Notes: generated from the letters alone by a model not told the origin. DNA of 64,000 nt from a virus (IMGVR_UViG_3300046007_014223:1-64000), one strand, 5' to 3'. Counted from the first letter of the stretch, positions 5,360 through 8,536 are shown. Numbers and translations are program-made.

Positions 5360-5436
<77 letters not shown>

Positions 5437-5437
5437 G

Positions 5438-5528
5438 TGGCGGAGGAAGGGAGAGTCGAACTCCCAAGGCGCTATTAACACTCAACTGTTTTCAAGACAG
5501 GTACCGTCGCCAATCGGTTTGTTCCTCC
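5438..5528 (-). tRNA. tRNA-Ser(TGA)
   Basis: CTTGAAA loop, long variable arm, GCCA end. Confidence 0.9.
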
Positions 5529-5529
5529 G

Positions 5530-6003
5530 TTATGCTGCTTTTGTGTGACATAAAATATGCTTGAACCTATCTGCTGCACCTGACGCCGCGAAAGCATTAG
5601 GCTTAACCATCGGAATAACATTACACATACCTTTGATGTATCCAACTGCTTCATTTATAACACATGAACTTCCATGATCTTCATTTGGATTGATGTCCAG
5701 ATGAACTTCGACCTCTCGATCATCTAGGACCTCAGCCAACTTAAGATATAATTCGGCAATCTTATAAACTTCATTCATTAGTCGCATTCTAGGTTTGTCT
5801 TTGCGTTGATCATAGTCCTTCTCACGAATGGTTTCTCCAAAGATTTTACATCCGTGCTTTCCTTCGATATGAATCACGACCACTAAAGTATAGTCGGCAT
5901 ACCAAACGCCTTTGATTTTAAATCTTTCTGAATCGCCACCGATATAGATTTTACTTGTGATCGGCTGTCCCTCGATGAAAGTTTTTACTTGATCAATGTT
6001 CAT
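5530..6003 (-). CDS. RNase H-like YkuK/DUF458 family protein
   Basis: IYIGGDSE, EVHLDIN and AAD acidic motifs; start after AGGTGAG. Confidence 0.75.
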   Translation of the reverse strand: MNIDQVKTFIEGQPITSKIYIGGDSERFKIKGVWYADYTLVVVIHIEGKHGCKIFGETIREKDYDQRKDKPRMRLMNEVYKIAELYLKLAEVLDDREVEVHLDINPNEDHGSSCVINEAVGYIKGMCNVIPMVKPNAFAASGAADRFKHILCHTKAA

Positions 6004-6022
6004 CATCTCACCTATGTTAAAC

Positions 6023-6098
6023 TGGTCTCGGACACAGGACTCGAACCTGCACCTTCTACGCCCCAAACGTAGTGGACTACCTATTATCCCAATCCGAG
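6023..6098 (-). tRNA. tRNA-Pro(TGG)
   Basis: CTACG-TTTGGGG-CGTAG, CCA. Confidence 0.9.
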
Positions 6099-6102
6099 AA
6101 AT

Positions 6103-6177
6103 TGGTGCTGGATGAAGGATTCGAACCATCGACCTATCGCTTACAAGGCGATTGCACTACCACTGTGCTAATCCAGC
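6103..6177 (-). tRNA. tRNA-Thr(TGT)
   Basis: ATCGC-CTTGTAA-GCGAT, CCA. Confidence 0.92.
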
Positions 6178-6185
6178 ATTTAAAA

Positions 6186-6214
6186 ATTATACTAAATTTT
6201 ATTTAGCCTGTCAA
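6186..6214 (-). promoter_or_regulatory. consensus sigma70 promoter
   Basis: TTGACA-17nt-TATAAT, perfect consensus. Confidence 0.85.
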
Positions 6215-6218
6215 CTGA

Positions 6219-6293
6219 TGGCCTCGGTGTACGGACTCGAACCGCAACTTTAGATTTTGGAGATCCACGTGCTGCCATTAACACTACACCGAG
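6219..6293 (-). tRNA. tRNA-Trp(CCA)
   Basis: TGGAT-CTCCAAA-ATCTA, GCCA. Confidence 0.9.
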
Positions 6294-6297
6294 ATTT

Positions 6298-6391
6298 TGG
6301 TGGTGAGAGTGGGATTCGAACCCACGGACCGCAAGTTAACACGATCTACGGTTTAGCAAACCGTTGATTTAAGCCTCTCATCCATCTCACC
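6298..6391 (-). tRNA. tRNA-Ser(GCT), copy 1
   Basis: ACGGT-TTGCTAA-ACCGT, long variable arm. Confidence 0.9.
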
Positions 6392-6394
6392 AAT

Positions 6395-6469
6395 TGGTGG
6401 ACCGCTGGAGGATCGAACTCCAACCTCCGCCGTGCAAAGGCGGCGTGCTCCCATTATCACTAGCAGCCC
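6395..6469 (-). tRNA. tRNA-Ala(TGC)
   Basis: CCGCC-TTTGCAC-GGCGG; G3:U70 pair. Confidence 0.92.
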
Positions 6470-6479
6470 AAATTCATTT

Positions 6480-6553
6480 TGGAGCAGGATATCGGAATCG
6501 AACCGATAACATCAGCTTGGAAGGCTGTAGTTTTACCATTAAACTAATCCTGC
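6480..6553 (-). tRNA. tRNA-Gly(TCC)
   Basis: CTTCCAA loop, TCCA end. Confidence 0.92.
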
Positions 6554-6663
6554 AAATCTTTCATAAGGGGCACAATAGGACTGTCATCTCGACGTTCATT
6601 GCTGTCATTTAAAAATAGGCGTGTTGTCTATATAATGCGCCACTTCCCCACTAACTATATATT

Positions 6664-6738
6664 TGGCTCCAGTGGCTGGGATCGAACCAACGACCAATTG
6701 ATTAACAGTCAACTGCTCTACCTCTGAGCTACACTGGA
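6664..6738 (-). tRNA. tRNA-Asn(GTT)
   Basis: CTGTTAA loop, GCCA. Confidence 0.92.
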
Positions 6739-6745
6739 ATAAAAC

Positions 6746-6820
6746 TGGTACCGGATACTGGGATTGAACCAGTGACCAATGCGTTATCAACACACTGCTC
6801 TACCACTGAGCTAATCCGGT
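6746..6820 (-). tRNA. tRNA-Ile(GAT)
   Basis: TTGATAA loop, ACCA. Confidence 0.9.
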
Positions 6821-6821
6821 A

Positions 6822-6897
6822 TGGTACCGCCTCTTGGAATCGAACCAAGTTCCACGGCTCTTCAGACCGTTGCTATGACCACATCAGCTAAAGCGGC
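6822..6897 (-). tRNA. tRNA-Phe(GAA)
   Basis: ACGGT-CTGAAGA-GCCGT (G37). Confidence 0.88.
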
Positions 6898-6901
6898 AAA
6901 C

Positions 6902-6975
6902 TGGTGCTTCGTGACAGAATCGAACTGCCGTGACCGTCTTGTAAGGGCGGTGTTCTACCATTAAACTAACGAAGC
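6902..6975 (-). tRNA. tRNA-Val(TAC)
   Basis: CTTACAA loop. Confidence 0.9.
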
Positions 6976-6976
6976 C

Positions 6977-7051
6977 TGGGGTGTCTAATGAGTTTCGATC
7001 TCATCCTCACTCTTTCACAGAGAGTGGTGCTCCCATTACACTATAGACACC
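6977..7051 (-). tRNA. tRNA-His(GTG)
   Basis: ACTCT-CTGTGAA-AGAGT; G-1:C73. Confidence 0.9.
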
Positions 7052-7056
7052 GTTGT

Positions 7057-7132
7057 TGGTACACCGTAGGGGAATCGAACCCCTCTTCCTACCGTGAAAG
7101 GGTAGTGTCCTAAACCGATAGACGAACGGTGC
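7057..7132 (-). tRNA. tRNA-Glu(TTC)
   Basis: CTACC-CTTTCAC-GGTAG. Confidence 0.92.
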
Positions 7133-7137
7133 GTATT

Positions 7138-7211
7138 TGGCAGGCCTACTAGGATTCGAACCTAGAATGACGGAATCAAAATCCGTAGTGTTACCATTAC
7201 ACCATAGACCA
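7138..7211 (-). tRNA. tRNA-Gln(TTG)
   Basis: ACGGA-TTTTGAT-TCCGT. Confidence 0.92.
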
Positions 7212-7218
7212 ACAAATT

Positions 7219-7293
7219 TGGTAGGGGCAAAAGGACTCGAACCTTCAACCTCGACGTTAAAAGCATCTTGCTCTACCATTGAGCTATACCCCC
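7219..7293 (-). tRNA. tRNA-Lys(TTT)
   Basis: CTTTTAA loop. Confidence 0.9.
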
Positions 7294-7297
7294 AAAC

Positions 7298-7372
7298 TGG
7301 CGGTCCCATCGGGATTCGAACCCGATCCTGCGCCGTGACAGGGCGCTATACTCGCCGATATACTATGGAACC
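7298..7372 (-). tRNA. tRNA-Asp(GTC)
   Basis: GCGCC-CTGTCAC-GGCGC. Confidence 0.92.
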
Positions 7373-7378
7373 ATTTAT

Positions 7379-7452
7379 TGGTTGCGGATGATGGAATCGA
7401 ACCATCAACTTCAGCTTATGAGACTGATGAGATACCTTTTCTCTAATCCGCA
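7379..7452 (-). tRNA. tRNA-Met(CAT)
   Basis: TCAGT-CTCATAA-GCTGA; TGCGGAT/ATCCGCA acceptor stem. Confidence 0.85.
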
Positions 7453-7458
7453 GAATCT

Positions 7459-7548
7459 TGGTGAGTAGAGAGGGATTCGAACCCCCAACGGTTCCTAAGT
7501 AACGGATTTACAGTCCGCCGCGACACTCACCACCTTCGCCGTCTACTC
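7459..7548 (-). tRNA. tRNA-Tyr(GTA)
   Basis: GCGGA-CTGTAAA-TCCGT, long variable arm. Confidence 0.92.
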
Positions 7549-7552
7549 ATTT

Positions 7553-7686
7553 CCATATTGAAACACACTCGACCATCTCTTTTTTAGGCATCAGACCGGA
7601 GCGACCGGGGCTTGAAATGCTTGGCGATATCCTGTTTCGAAGCAGGGATGGACAGAACGCCGCAGTGTAAATGTGTTTCAATATGG
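7553..7686 (-). ncRNA. candidate ncRNA A closed by a 15-bp perfect stem
   Basis: CCATATTGAAACACA (7553-7567) / TGTGTTTCAATATGG (7672-7686); GC-rich interior; inside the tRNA operon. Confidence 0.6.
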
Positions 7687-7804
7687 TCCGAGACTCGAAC
7701 TCGGCATGTAAGCGGCTTCGCAATCGGGTAGCGCAATTTCCCTAGCACTGACTAACACAGGTTAATTAAGCCCGCTCTCATCAGTGAAGCCTACACAGCT
7801 TCCT
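7684..7804 (-). ncRNA. candidate ncRNA with tRNA-like T-arm + ACCA 3' end
   Basis: CCGAG-TTCGAGT-CTCGG-ACCA; further stems CACTGA/TCAGTG and GAAGC/GCTTC. Confidence 0.5.
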
Positions 7805-7935
7805 GCACCATATTGAAACACACTTGAGGTAACCGTGACAAGCGGGGGCTTTTTACACCTCTCTACCTGCGTGCTCACCAGACAGTCACTTCTGTTCTAA
7901 GGACGCTTTCGATTTAGTATGCTTCAATATGGTGC
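7805..7935 (-). ncRNA. candidate ncRNA B closed by a 20-bp stem
   Basis: GCACCATATTGAAGCATACT / AGTGTGTTTCAATATGGTGC; both differences are G-U pairs on the - strand. Confidence 0.6.
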
Positions 7936-8006
7936 CCCAGGAGAGACTCGAACTCTCAAAATTTGGCTTCTAAGACCAACACGTATACCAATTCCGTCAC
8001 CGGGGC
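7930..8006 (-). tRNA. tRNA-Leu(TAG) with short variable loop
   Basis: TTGGT-CTTAGAA-GCCAA; 77 nt. Confidence 0.85.
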
Positions 8007-8159
8007 AATGCAAGCAAATTTTTAAAGTACGATTCAGGACTTTTGTCCTTGCTACAAGCCCCACCGCGCTTTGTAGCGTGACGCCCAACTGTCCAGCGCC
8101 TTTCCCTATTCGCCTCATGCATCAGAATTGACTGACGACTTAGAGAGGTCTTTAGATTC
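8007..8159 (-). ncRNA. candidate structured ncRNA
   Basis: three tandem hairpins: GGCGC/GCGTC, GCTACAA/TTGTAGC, AGGAC/GTCCT. Confidence 0.4.
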
Positions 8160-8254
8160 TGGTAGTAGGTAAGGGATTCGAACCCTTCCGTTTCAGCCCA
8201 TCTGACCGATCTCCAGGGTTTATAAGACCCCGCCGCACACCAATGCTACCTACC
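8160..8254 (-). tRNA. atypical tRNA, anticodon TAT (Ile), long variable arm, reduced D arm
   Basis: GGTAGGT/ACCTACT acceptor, GGGGT-CTTATAA-ACCCT, AAGGG-TTCGAAT-CCCTT, ACCA. Confidence 0.75.
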
Positions 8255-8275
8255 GCTCATTCATTCAACAGGTTA

Positions 8276-8304
8276 ATTATATATGCAAAATCTTGGGTTG
8301 TAAA
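8276..8304 (-). promoter_or_regulatory. sigma70 promoter for the tRNA operon
   Basis: TTTACA-17nt-TATAAT. Confidence 0.8.
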
Positions 8305-8345
8305 GCGGTTTTTGAACTTTTTATTTTTGTTGTTTTCTTGCAACT

Positions 8346-8439
8346 TGGTGGAAAGAGTGGGATTCGAACCCACGGACCGCAAGTTAACACGATCTACGGT
8401 TTAGCAAACCGCTCCTTTAGACCTCTCAGGCATCTTTCC
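8346..8439 (-). tRNA. tRNA-Ser(GCT), copy 2
   Basis: TTGCTAA loop; 58 nt identical to copy 1. Confidence 0.9.
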
Positions 8440-8444
8440 GAAAT

Positions 8445-8536
8445 TGGTGGAAGCGGTGAGATTCGAACTCACGGACCCTTCGCAGGATCGCTAGTTTTCA
8501 AGACTAGTGCAATAAACCGGACTCTGCCACACTTCC
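8445..8536 (-). tRNA. tRNA-Ser(TGA), copy 2
   Basis: CTAGT-CTTGAAA-ACTAG, long variable arm. Confidence 0.9.

What the first reader, a model, noticed from the sequence alone, without database searches (positions are those of the whole stretch)
7553..7935. Two different ~100-nt RNA payloads enclosed by the same long stem that begins at a CCA end
Seen: CCATATTGAAACACA and its complement occur four times, forming two stems (7553-7567/7672-7686 and 7805-7824/7916-7935) around unrelated GC-rich interiors. Arm differences are G-U wobbles only on the - (tRNA) strand, indicating selection on RNA structure. In both cases the 5' arm starts at the CCA of the upstream RNA (tRNA-Leu, or the T-arm+ACCA element), so the distal arm can pair with that CCA end. 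Inference: a modular ncRNA cassette system in a phage tRNA operon, with a conserved processing or protein-binding stem carrying variable RNA cargo. It is loosely analogous to the stable non-tRNA species in the T4 tRNA cluster, but I do not recognise the family. Best candidate here for an undescribed system.
Basis: partly seen in the sequence, partly recalled or inferred. Interest (0 to 1): 0.85.

Follow-up and report, generated by a model that had tools for sequence, protein, structure and literature searches.

The report
RNA cassettes in phage tRNA arrays
Two hairpin RNAs between the tRNA genes of an uncultured T4-like phage share one almost constant 19-base-pair stem but enclose different folded interiors. 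They belong to a large, phage-only, apparently undescribed family of such cassettes, and the stem looks like a shared cutting-and-protection signal.

Summary
CCATATTGAAACACA or its complement occurs 4 times (0.02 expected), forming an 18-bp and a 20-bp stem around two unrelated interiors on the tRNA (-) strand.

It is one locus of a big family. A relaxed scan found 236 distinct elements in 119 loci, with at least 47 cargo classes.

Evidence that it is a transcribed RNA:
- G-U orientation matches the tRNA strand 107:2.
- Compensatory changes run along the whole helix, which ends sharply at about 19 bp.
- Both window cargos show covariation.
- Elements occur only inside tRNA arrays of gp23-type (T4-like) aquatic phages.
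- Only chance hits turned up in 185,579 prokaryote genomes; Rfam has no match.
- One cultured carrier was found, Synechococcus phage BUCT-ZZ01.

Best reading: co-transcribed cassettes whose helix is a common processing and stability handle, most likely cut by host RNase III. Its inner U-A/U-G step equals the E. coli distal box. The predicted cut lies 3 nt past CCA. The cassette reading is about 0.9 likely, the RNase III step about 0.45. Cargo functions are unknown.

This scan noted the same family earlier on other DNA. I found no paper that describes it.

The parts
7930..8006 (-). tRNA-Leu(UAG). Its 3' GCA-CCA (7935-7930) forms the first 6 nt of the 5' arm of element B.
   Evidence: ARAGORN; Rfam tRNA 60.4 bits; sequence.
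7916..7935 (-). Element B, 5' arm (GCACCAUAUUGAAGCAUACU).
   Evidence: Inverted repeat I1, 20 nt, 90%; MFE stem.
7825..7915 (-). Element B cargo, 91 nt, three internal helices.
   Evidence: Found in 12 other viral loci at 81-100% identity. On 12 distinct sequences, 12 pairs carry compensatory changes and 98.4% of cells are paired, with 0/500 shuffles reaching this.
7805..7824 (-). Element B, 3' arm (AGUGUGUUUCAAUAUGGUGC).
7687..7804 (-). 118-nt non-tRNA RNA ending in a T-arm (CCGAG-UUCGAGU-CUCGG) followed directly by A-CCA. It lies between the two cassettes, and the 5' arm of element A starts on its CCA.
   Evidence: Sequence. No tRNA call by ARAGORN or Rfam even at E<=10. The fold is not better than shuffles, z -0.56. 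Found only in near relatives L034 and L045, and partly in L083.
7669..7686 (-). Element A, 5' arm (CCAUAUUGAAACACAUUU): 15 perfect pairs plus 3 more, two of them wobbles.
   Evidence: Inverted repeat I5; 18-bp MFE stem.
7571..7668 (-). Element A cargo, about 98 nt, containing a CCGG-UCGCU-CCGG hairpin.
   Evidence: Found in 13 other viral loci at 79-100% identity. The consensus fold has 4 compensatory pairs.
7553..7570 (-). Element A, 3' arm (GAGUGUGUUUCAAUAUGG), followed by AAAU and then tRNA-Tyr.
7459..7548 (-). tRNA-Tyr(GUA), the next RNA downstream. By acceptor pairing GAGUAGA/UCUACUC its 5' end is at 7548, whereas ARAGORN gives 7539.
   Evidence: ARAGORN and Rfam hits are weak and oddly placed (anticodon at position 29; 31.2 bits). 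The pairing was read.

Best explanation
Elements A and B are two members of a large family of RNA cassettes that live only in the tRNA operons of uncultivated aquatic T4-like phages.

Each cassette is a nearly invariant helix of about 19 bp. It comprises one flanking pair (A/G with U), then CCAUAUUGAARYRYAYU paired with ARURYRYUUCAAUAUGG, then one more pair. The helix closes a variable, separately conserved, folded RNA of about 25-150 nt.

The cassettes are transcribed with the tRNAs. The helix is a cargo-independent processing and stability handle. It draws the 3' end (NCCA) of the upstream RNA and the 5' end of the downstream RNA into one duplex.

I think this duplex is cut by a double-strand-specific endonuclease, most likely the host's RNase III. 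By E. coli rules the cut would fall 11 bp below the conserved inner U-A/U-G step, that is CCAUAU|UGAA on the 5' arm and UUCAAU|AUGG on the 3' arm. That would leave the upstream tRNA with a 3-nt trailer for exonuclease trimming. It would leave the downstream tRNA with a 2-nt leader for RNase P. The cargo would be released as a small RNA capped by an 11-bp stem.

Shown here: the family, its RNA-level selection, its restriction to tRNA arrays, and its modularity.
Inferred: co-transcription, the cutting enzyme and cut site, and the stability of the product.
Unknown: what the cargos do.
For: Family and selection at the RNA level:
- At least 118 viral contigs match CCATATTGAA-N90-120-TTCAATATGG, and 114 of them have the extended stem.
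- The same pattern in 596 Gb of prokaryote genomes gave 26 hits where about 17 are expected by chance. None carries the family stem.
- Arm mismatches are strand-consistent, and the G-U strand is the tRNA strand in 107 elements against 2.
- The relaxed scan gave 236 distinct elements. Compensatory changes run along the whole helix (position 7: UA 199, AU 29, GC 4; position 8: GC 180, AU 17, CG 8; position 12: CG 141, UA 63). Pairing stops at position 18-19.
- Cargos A and B covary.

Array restriction:
- 1457 tRNAs lie in 112 of 119 loci.
- In 5 large carrier genomes, 3 of them at least 96% complete, the 2-8 elements per genome all lie in the tRNA-array region. All five have gp23.

Boundaries:
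- 62 of 133 elements share their CCA with an ARAGORN tRNA.
- In 18, the next tRNA starts on the GG of the 3' arm.
- In phage BUCT-ZZ01 the 3' arm abuts a tmRNA 5' end.

RNase III:
- The helix is perfect and of fixed length, about 19 bp.
- The inner step U17-A (95%) / U16-G (70%, the wobble being the commonest state) equals the canonical E. coli distal box UA/UG, where U-G is stringently required (PMC1540722).
- Eleven bp below it, the two antideterminant positions pb2 and pb4 (family positions 9 and 7) are A/U pairs in 99% and 97% of elements.
- No phage-encoded RNase III in 5 carriers, so a host enzyme would be used.
- Phage KVP40 encloses tRNA-Asp and tRNA-His in 14-15-bp leader-trailer helices that also pair UGG with CCA. 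Duplexes at tRNA ends are therefore not unique to this clade.
Against: - No expression or end-mapping data exist, so co-transcription and cleavage are inferred.
- The hosts are unknown and are not E. coli. The cited paper itself says distal-box sequences may differ between species.
- At the predicted register pb1 is A-U (consensus G-C) and pb3 is G-C (consensus A-U). My reading of which distal-box position is loop-proximal rests on the paper's numbering, not on its figure.
- RNase III alone needs little sequence. It does not explain why the outer 10 bp are so constant across more than 40 cargo types.
- More than half of the elements are neither preceded by a recognisable tRNA nor followed by one within 25 nt. 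Freeing tRNA ends therefore cannot be the whole purpose.
Confidence: 0.5

Rival explanations
1. Clamp only. The ends of the cassette are made by the ordinary tRNA enzymes: RNase P at the next tRNA, and RNase Z/BN, RNase E or exonucleases at the CCA. The helix is never cut. It only shields the cargo from exonucleases and keeps its fold independent of its neighbours.
For: - In 18 elements the next tRNA begins on the GG of the 3' arm, and in 62 the CCA is a tRNA's own. Mature tRNA ends would then leave a blunt UAUUGAA...UUCAAUAU hairpin.
- The last four leader bases AUAU put U at -1 and A at -4, which I recall as RNase P preferences (from memory, not tested).
- The region after the stem is A/U-rich, as at RNase E sites.
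Against: - A leader paired up to -1 is a poor RNase P substrate (established knowledge).
- 168 of 232 elements have no tRNA within 25 nt downstream, so RNase P cannot set most 3' ends.
- This reading does not explain the fixed 19-bp length or the selected U-G wobble.
Confidence: 0.2
2. Dedicated reader. The constant helix is the binding or cleavage site of a phage-encoded protein, and the cargos are delivered to it or released by it. The obvious candidate is the DUF458/YkuK RNase H-like nuclease encoded inside the same tRNA operons.
For: - Sequence constancy across more than 40 cargo types, including fixed wobble positions, exceeds what a generic dsRNA nuclease needs.
- A PF04308 gene lies inside the window's tRNA operon at 5530-6021 and in 31 of 119 stem-selected loci.
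- It is present in 5 of 5 large carrier genomes.
- In 80 loci fetched through this protein, all 1476 tRNAs share its strand and 50 loci carry cassettes.
- Its acidic residues are invariant.
Against: - PF04308 also sits in or beside the tRNA arrays of KVP40, RcXuper and BUDD, which lack this stem.
- 30 of 80 PF04308 loci, some with 20-28 tRNAs, show no cassette within 8 kb.
- The link is therefore to tRNA arrays rather than to the stem. No activity is known for the family (PMC3985635).
Confidence: 0.15
3. CCA sequestration switch. By pairing ACCA with UGGU, the 3' arm hides the upstream tRNA's acceptor end. This delays that tRNA's maturation or charging, or its recognition by RNase P, until the cassette is removed.
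For: - The 3'-arm end UGGU pairs with A73-C74-C75-A76.
- The flanking A/G-U pair is kept in 76% of elements.
- KVP40 shows the same CCA-UGG pairing around two tRNAs.
Against: - Only about 46% of elements follow a tRNA or T-arm end.
- Where CCA is replaced (CUA, UCA, CAA) the partner changes with it. Pairing is selected, not the CCA as such.
- This reading gives no role to the conserved, covarying cargos.
Confidence: 0.07
4. DNA-level element. The arms are terminal inverted repeats of a MITE-like transposon, or recombination sites for cassette exchange, with no function as RNA.
For: - The arms are inverted repeats flanking variable DNA.
- The same cargo sits behind Thr, Val, Gln, Tyr, Leu, Arg and Phe tRNAs in different phages, so cassettes have moved.
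- Homing endonuclease genes are common in the arrays.
Against: - Orientation is fixed relative to the tRNAs, 107:2.
- Mismatches are G-U on the transcribed strand only, and the commonest state at position 16 is a wobble, not a perfect repeat.
- Cargos covary as RNA.
- No copies lie outside the tRNA-array region in 5 large genomes.
Confidence: 0.03

Closest known systems
Phage T4 stable RNAs species 1 and 2 (rnaC, rnaD)
   Same: Both are small non-tRNA RNAs of about 120-140 nt, encoded inside and co-oriented with the tRNA cluster of a T4-type phage, with tRNA-like 3' features. T4 rnaC has a T-arm and rnaD ends in ACCA. Their roles are still unknown (PMC3014915).
   Different: T4 rnaC and rnaD have no CCAUAUUGAA/UUCAAUAUGG closing helix. 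The only resemblance is a short CCGG-UCGCU-CCGG-like hairpin shared by rnaD and cargo A, which may be chance. T4 has two such RNAs; this family has one handle and dozens of cargos.
RNase III processing stems of rRNA operons and the intervening sequences (IVS) of 23S rRNA
   Same: A long helix formed by the flanks encloses the RNA to be released. From memory, IVS have conserved stems, variable interiors and a sporadic distribution. The U-A/U-G step and the helix length fit E. coli RNase III rules.
   Different: These cassettes lie in phage tRNA arrays, not in rRNA. Cleavage is untested. The interiors here are conserved, covarying RNAs rather than discarded spacers.
Theta (HDV-like) ribozymes downstream of phage tRNAs (PMC10879173, listed)
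   Same: Both are structured RNA elements placed directly behind phage tRNA genes, where they could define the tRNA 3' end.
   Different: Theta elements are self-cleaving, with a nested double-pseudoknot fold. No ribozyme family of Rfam matched here even at E<=10, and a 19-bp helix joining the 5' and 3' ends is not that fold.
Bacterial Y RNAs (YrlA) bound by Ro/Rsr
   Same: The 5' and 3' ends pair in a long stem, and some cargos carry tRNA-like T- and D-arms next to the stem (clusters 4, 32, 36).
   Different: There is no Rfam YrlA match. No TROVE/Ro gene was found in 5 carrier genomes. The helix is perfect, without the bulged Ro-binding site (that feature is from memory).

Membership tests
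T4 rnaC/rnaD stable RNAs | Encoded within, and co-oriented with, the tRNA cluster of a T4-type phage | tested here: met
   23 tRNAs lie on the - strand at 5360-8536. gp23 matches at E 3e-141.
T4 rnaC/rnaD stable RNAs | Sequence or structure homology to T4 rnaC or rnaD | tested here: not met
   The T4 sequences were read. They have no family stem, and blastn against GenBank phages returns only tRNA-Leu.
T4 rnaC/rnaD stable RNAs | Accumulates as a discrete stable RNA in infected cells | not testable with these tools
   No expression data are available.
RNase III-excised stems (rRNA flanks, IVS) | A continuous helix of about 20 bp formed by the flanks of the enclosed RNA | tested here: met
   18 and 20 bp in the window. 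The family helix spans positions 0-18 and then ends.
RNase III-excised stems (rRNA flanks, IVS) | E. coli-type determinants: distal box UA/UG, and no G-C at pb2 or pb4 | tested here: inconclusive
   The distal box and pb2/pb4 fit, but pb1 and pb3 do not. The host enzyme is unknown.
RNase III-excised stems (rRNA flanks, IVS) | Cleavage by RNase III | not testable with these tools
   This needs an enzyme assay or a mutant host.
MITE / transposon with terminal inverted repeats | Copies dispersed through the genome in either orientation | tested here: not met
   Copies lie only in the tRNA-array region of 5 large genomes. Orientation follows the tRNAs 107:2.
MITE / transposon with terminal inverted repeats | Similar interior among copies of one family | tested here: not met
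   47 unrelated cargo clusters among 111 sequences.
Any Rfam 15 family | Covariance-model match | tested here: not met
   Nothing in 7553-7935 at gathering score or at E<=10. In 20 further loci only tRNAs, one GOLLD and one group I intron appear among the 150 best of 190 matches.
Y RNA / Ro system | Ro (TROVE) protein encoded by the same genome | tested here: not met
   PF05731 is absent from 5 carrier genomes, while the control genomes match it.

The most novel reading that the evidence does not exclude
The 19-bp helix is the address label of a phage-specific RNA cassette system. A dedicated reader, possibly the DUF458 RNase H-like nuclease and the phosphoesterases encoded inside the same tRNA operons, would recognise the label and excise or load any cargo placed within it. 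The interchangeable cargos would be a toolbox of decoys or regulators used against host tRNA-directed or RNA-sensing defences. In logic this would resemble CRISPR repeats or pri-miRNA stems, not a by-product of tRNA processing.
Probability: 0.15. Interest if true: 0.92.

Novelty: new variant of a known kind. Interest (0 to 1): 0.76.

Why it matters
Small RNAs in the T4 tRNA cluster have been known for about 50 years without a function. Here the same kind of RNA appears as a system: one constant handle, dozens of interchangeable and separately conserved cargos, and hundreds of loci in abundant aquatic T4-like phages.

This gives three testable things:
- a precise processing prediction (a cut 3 nt after CCA and 2 nt before the next RNA);
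- a cultured carrier on a genetically tractable host (BUCT-ZZ01 on S. elongatus PCC 7942);
- a catalogue of new structured RNAs whose targets may reveal what phage tRNA arrays do beyond codon supply.

If the handle works regardless of cargo, it is also a natural scaffold for expressing stable RNAs.

Tried and rejected
- Rfam at gathering score and at E<=10 found nothing in the elements. Twenty other loci gave only tRNAs, one GOLLD and one group I intron among the 150 best of 190 matches.
- blastn against 50,697 GenBank phages returned only tRNA-Leu. At E<=10 no arm matched.
- Full-text search for the arm sequences returned only unrelated primers. Topic searches found no description. A catalogue of 8,495 unnamed IMG/VR motifs (PMC10690425) could contain single cargos, but its supplements are not held.
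- Hammerhead reading of the CUGAUGAG in the 118-nt element: there is no GAAA after a stem II and no Rfam hit, so I rejected it.
- Canonical tRNA reading of cargos with T-arms: the 3' side would read U-UCA rather than N-CCA, so I rejected it.
- RNase P-substrate mimicry of the hairpin: there is no NCCA after the 3' arm.
- Antisense targets of cargos A and B and of the two neighbouring RNAs in the phage's own 82.8 kb: only chance-level matches, best E 0.08.
- Phage-encoded RNase III: absent from 5 carriers. Ro/TROVE: absent. The Rnl2-type RNA ligase is in only 2 of 5, so a ligation or circularisation idea has no consistent support.
- DUF458 as a stem-specific partner: not supported, because it also occurs in arrays without the stem.
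- A generic scan for long hairpins in KVP40, BUDD, RcXuper and T4 was too noisy to show other CCA-anchored cargo stems.

Full report
**Observation.**
The window carries a tRNA operon on the - strand: 23 ARAGORN tRNAs at 5360-8536, 22 of them confirmed by Rfam. The 15-mer CCATATTGAARCAYA occurs four times, at 7553, 7672, 7808 and 7918, against 0.02 expected. It occurs nowhere else in the 82.8-kb virus record.

Read on the - strand, the order is:
- tRNA-Leu(UAG);
- element B (7935-7805; 20-bp stem);
- a 118-nt RNA ending in a T-arm plus ACCA (7804-7687);
- element A (7686-7553; 18-bp stem);
- AAAU;
- tRNA-Tyr.

Both elements fold better than shuffles, with z -4.6 and -3.1. The imperfect positions are G-U on this strand.

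**A large family.**
In 114 of them the pairing continues inward as RYRYAYU/ARURYRY.

The same pattern in 596 Gb of prokaryote genomes gave 26 hits. About 17 are expected by chance (my arithmetic: 4^-20 x 31 spacings x 5.96e11). None had the family extension, and one odd contig (L147) had a different long stem. This serves as an empirical control and shows the family is phage-only.

A relaxed scan of the fetched loci found 287 elements, 236 of them distinct. They are 60-190 nt long, about 2.4 per locus. Interiors fall into at least 47 unrelated clusters, and the shorter elements add many more.

**It is an RNA.**
- Within an element, transition mismatches are nearly always all G-U or all A-C on a given strand.
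- The G-U strand is the strand of the neighbouring tRNAs in 107 elements against 2.
- Compensatory double changes occur along the whole helix, including the outer 10 bp that my first pattern had fixed. Examples are position 7 (UA 199, AU 29, GC 4), position 8 (GC 180, AU 17, CG 8) and positions 1-2 (CG to UA or AU).
- Pairing ends abruptly after position 18.
- At position 16 the wobble U-G is the commonest state (70%).
- The window's two cargos are conserved in 13 and 12 other loci.
- Both cargos covary. Cargo B has 12 pairs with compensatory changes, 98.4% of cells paired, 0 of 500 shuffles as good, and 31-54% paired when the partners are slid. Cargo A has 4 such pairs.

**Context.**
- 112 of 119 loci hold tRNAs, 1457 in all.
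- In five large carrier genomes, three of them 96-100% complete, the 2-8 elements per genome all lie in the tRNA-array region.
- All five genomes, and the window, encode a gp23-type capsid. The nearest cultured capsids (69-66% identity) belong to Methylophilales phage Melnitz and pelagiphages, then to cyanomyoviruses.
- The same cargo class follows Thr, Val, Gln, Tyr, Leu, Arg or Phe tRNAs in different phages, so cassettes have been shuffled.
- No GenBank phage has the exact arm.
- The lake cyanophage BUCT-ZZ01 carries a variant (CCAUAUUAAAGCAUGCUUG, 21 bp perfect, 85-nt interior). Its 3' arm abuts the 5' end of a permuted tmRNA.

**Boundaries.**
- In 62 of 133 elements the CCA is that of an ARAGORN tRNA. 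In 18 the next tRNA begins on the GG of the 3' arm.
- Over all distinct elements, 39% follow a tRNA, 7% follow a T-loop-plus-acceptor-like end, and the rest follow other structured RNAs. Only 27% are followed by a tRNA within 25 nt.
- Where CCA is replaced, the partner UGG changes too.
- The helix as a whole, not the tRNA end, is therefore the selected unit.

**Mechanism.**
The helix is perfect and of fixed length, about 19 bp, and it joins the 3' end of one RNA to the 5' end of the next. This is the geometry of RNase III processing stems.

[quoted passage not shown] There the U-G is stringently required: changing it to G-U lowers reactivity 50-fold and to A-U more than 30-fold (PMC1540722).

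Counting the 11 bp that the paper gives between the distal box and the cut, the proximal box falls on family positions 10-7. The two antideterminant positions, pb2 and pb4, are A/U pairs in 99% and 97% of elements. pb1 and pb3 do not fit the consensus.

The predicted cuts are CCAUAU|UGAA and UUCAAU|AUGG. They would leave:
- a 3-nt trailer on the upstream tRNA;
- a 2-nt leader on a tRNA that starts at GG;
- an 11-bp cap on the cargo.

This is inference from E. coli rules applied to unknown hosts. I put the RNase III step at about 0.45 and the general reading of a co-transcribed, excised cassette with a common handle at about 0.9.

The carriers encode no RNase III of their own.

**Rivals.**
- A pure exonuclease clamp whose ends are set by tRNA enzymes fits the 18 + 62 exact junctions. 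It does not fit the majority without adjacent tRNAs.
- A dedicated reader is suggested by the sequence constancy and by a PF04308 (DUF458/YkuK, RNase H-like) gene embedded in the operons. That gene lies at window 5530-6021 and in 31 stem-selected loci. It is also in 5 of 5 large carriers, and in the 80 loci fetched through the protein all 1476 tRNAs share its strand. But the gene also occurs in arrays without this stem, and 30 of 80 of its loci lack cassettes.
- A DNA-only mobile element is contradicted by orientation, wobble asymmetry, cargo covariation and confinement to the arrays.
- CCA sequestration as a switch cannot explain the elements that have no tRNA upstream.

**Comparison with known systems.**
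- The closest known objects are the T4 stable RNAs rnaC and rnaD, whose roles remain unknown (PMC3014915). They share the setting but not the handle.
- RNase III-flanked rRNAs and IVS share the logic but not the location.
- Theta ribozymes are a different solution placed behind phage tRNAs.
- Y RNAs share the terminal stem and the tRNA-like modules, but no Ro gene is present.
- No Rfam family matches and no paper found by my searches describes the handle.
- A catalogue of 8,495 unnamed IMG/VR motifs may include single cargos.

**Earlier notes of this scan.**
Earlier notes and follow-ups describe the same family on other DNA. My tests agree with them. What I add:
- the prokaryote-genome control;
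- the confinement to the arrays in complete genomes;
- the exact tRNA junctions;
- the cultured carrier;
- the distal-box match with a predicted cut site;
- the operon-embedded nuclease as a lead.

**Verdict.**
This is a real, widespread, apparently undescribed RNA cassette family. The handle's role is inferred and the cargo functions are unknown.

Noticed in passing
window 5530-6021 (-): A 163-aa PF04308 (DUF458/YkuK, RNase H-like) gene sits inside the tRNA operon between tRNA-Ser and tRNA-Pro. In 80 viral loci fetched through this protein, all 1476 tRNAs lie on its strand. Homologues lie in or beside the tRNA arrays of KVP40, RcXuper, BUDD and BUCT-ZZ01. It looks like an uncharacterised nuclease of phage tRNA operons.
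   Followed up: partly
loci L015 1810-2409, L085 1153-1653 and others: Metallophos_2 phosphoesterase genes (29 loci) are embedded in the same tRNA arrays on the tRNA strand, often within 5-30 nt of flanking tRNAs. Dual-specificity-phosphatase-like genes (12 loci) lie on the tRNA strand in or near the arrays. They could be RNA end-healing enzymes.
   Followed up: no
L155 (Vibrio phage KVP40) 950-1054 and 3032-3136: tRNA-Asp and tRNA-His are each enclosed by a 14-15-bp leader-trailer helix that pairs UGG with the tRNA's own CCA (z -5.4 and -4.1). This is a related architecture in a cultured T4-like phage.
   Followed up: partly
L151 (Synechococcus phage BUCT-ZZ01, ON615601) 5976-6102: A variant cassette with a perfect 21-bp stem lies directly before a phage-encoded permuted tmRNA (Rfam 6099-6395). 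The record annotates no tRNAs, although ARAGORN finds 15 plus the tmRNA.
   Followed up: partly
window 7459-7548 (-): The ARAGORN and Rfam calls for tRNA-Tyr look misplaced (81 nt, anticodon at position 29, 31 bits). The acceptor pairing GAGUAGA/UCUACUC puts the 5' end at 7548 and gives a 90-nt class II tRNA.
   Followed up: partly
window 8007-8159 (-) and 8160-8254 (-): A 153-nt structured spacer (z -2.0) is conserved in L034, L045 and L092. Next to it is a 95-nt tRNA-like gene with a UAU anticodon that scores only 32.6 bits against tRNA-Sec and is missed by the tRNA model.
   Followed up: no
L072 341-805; L019 2406-2605; L056 just downstream of the cassette at 6131-6255 (- strand): Other RNAs share these arrays. 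A GOLLD RNA (218 bits) lies just upstream of two cassettes, and there is a group I intron. A CUGAUGAG...CGAAAC hammerhead-like core lies right after a cassette but did not reach the Rfam gathering score.
   Followed up: partly
L147 18-132 (Burkholderiaceae MAG contig): This is the only prokaryote-collection hit with a long stem: the same outer 10 bp, but a different inner extension (at least 24 bp in all). It may be a binned phage contig or a distant variant.
   Followed up: no
window 7571-7668 versus T4 rnaD (L123 1554-1672): Cargo A contains a CCGG-UCGCU-CCGG hairpin that resembles ACCGG-GUCGCUA-CCGGU near the 5' end of T4 species 2 RNA. It is too short to call homology.
   Followed up: no
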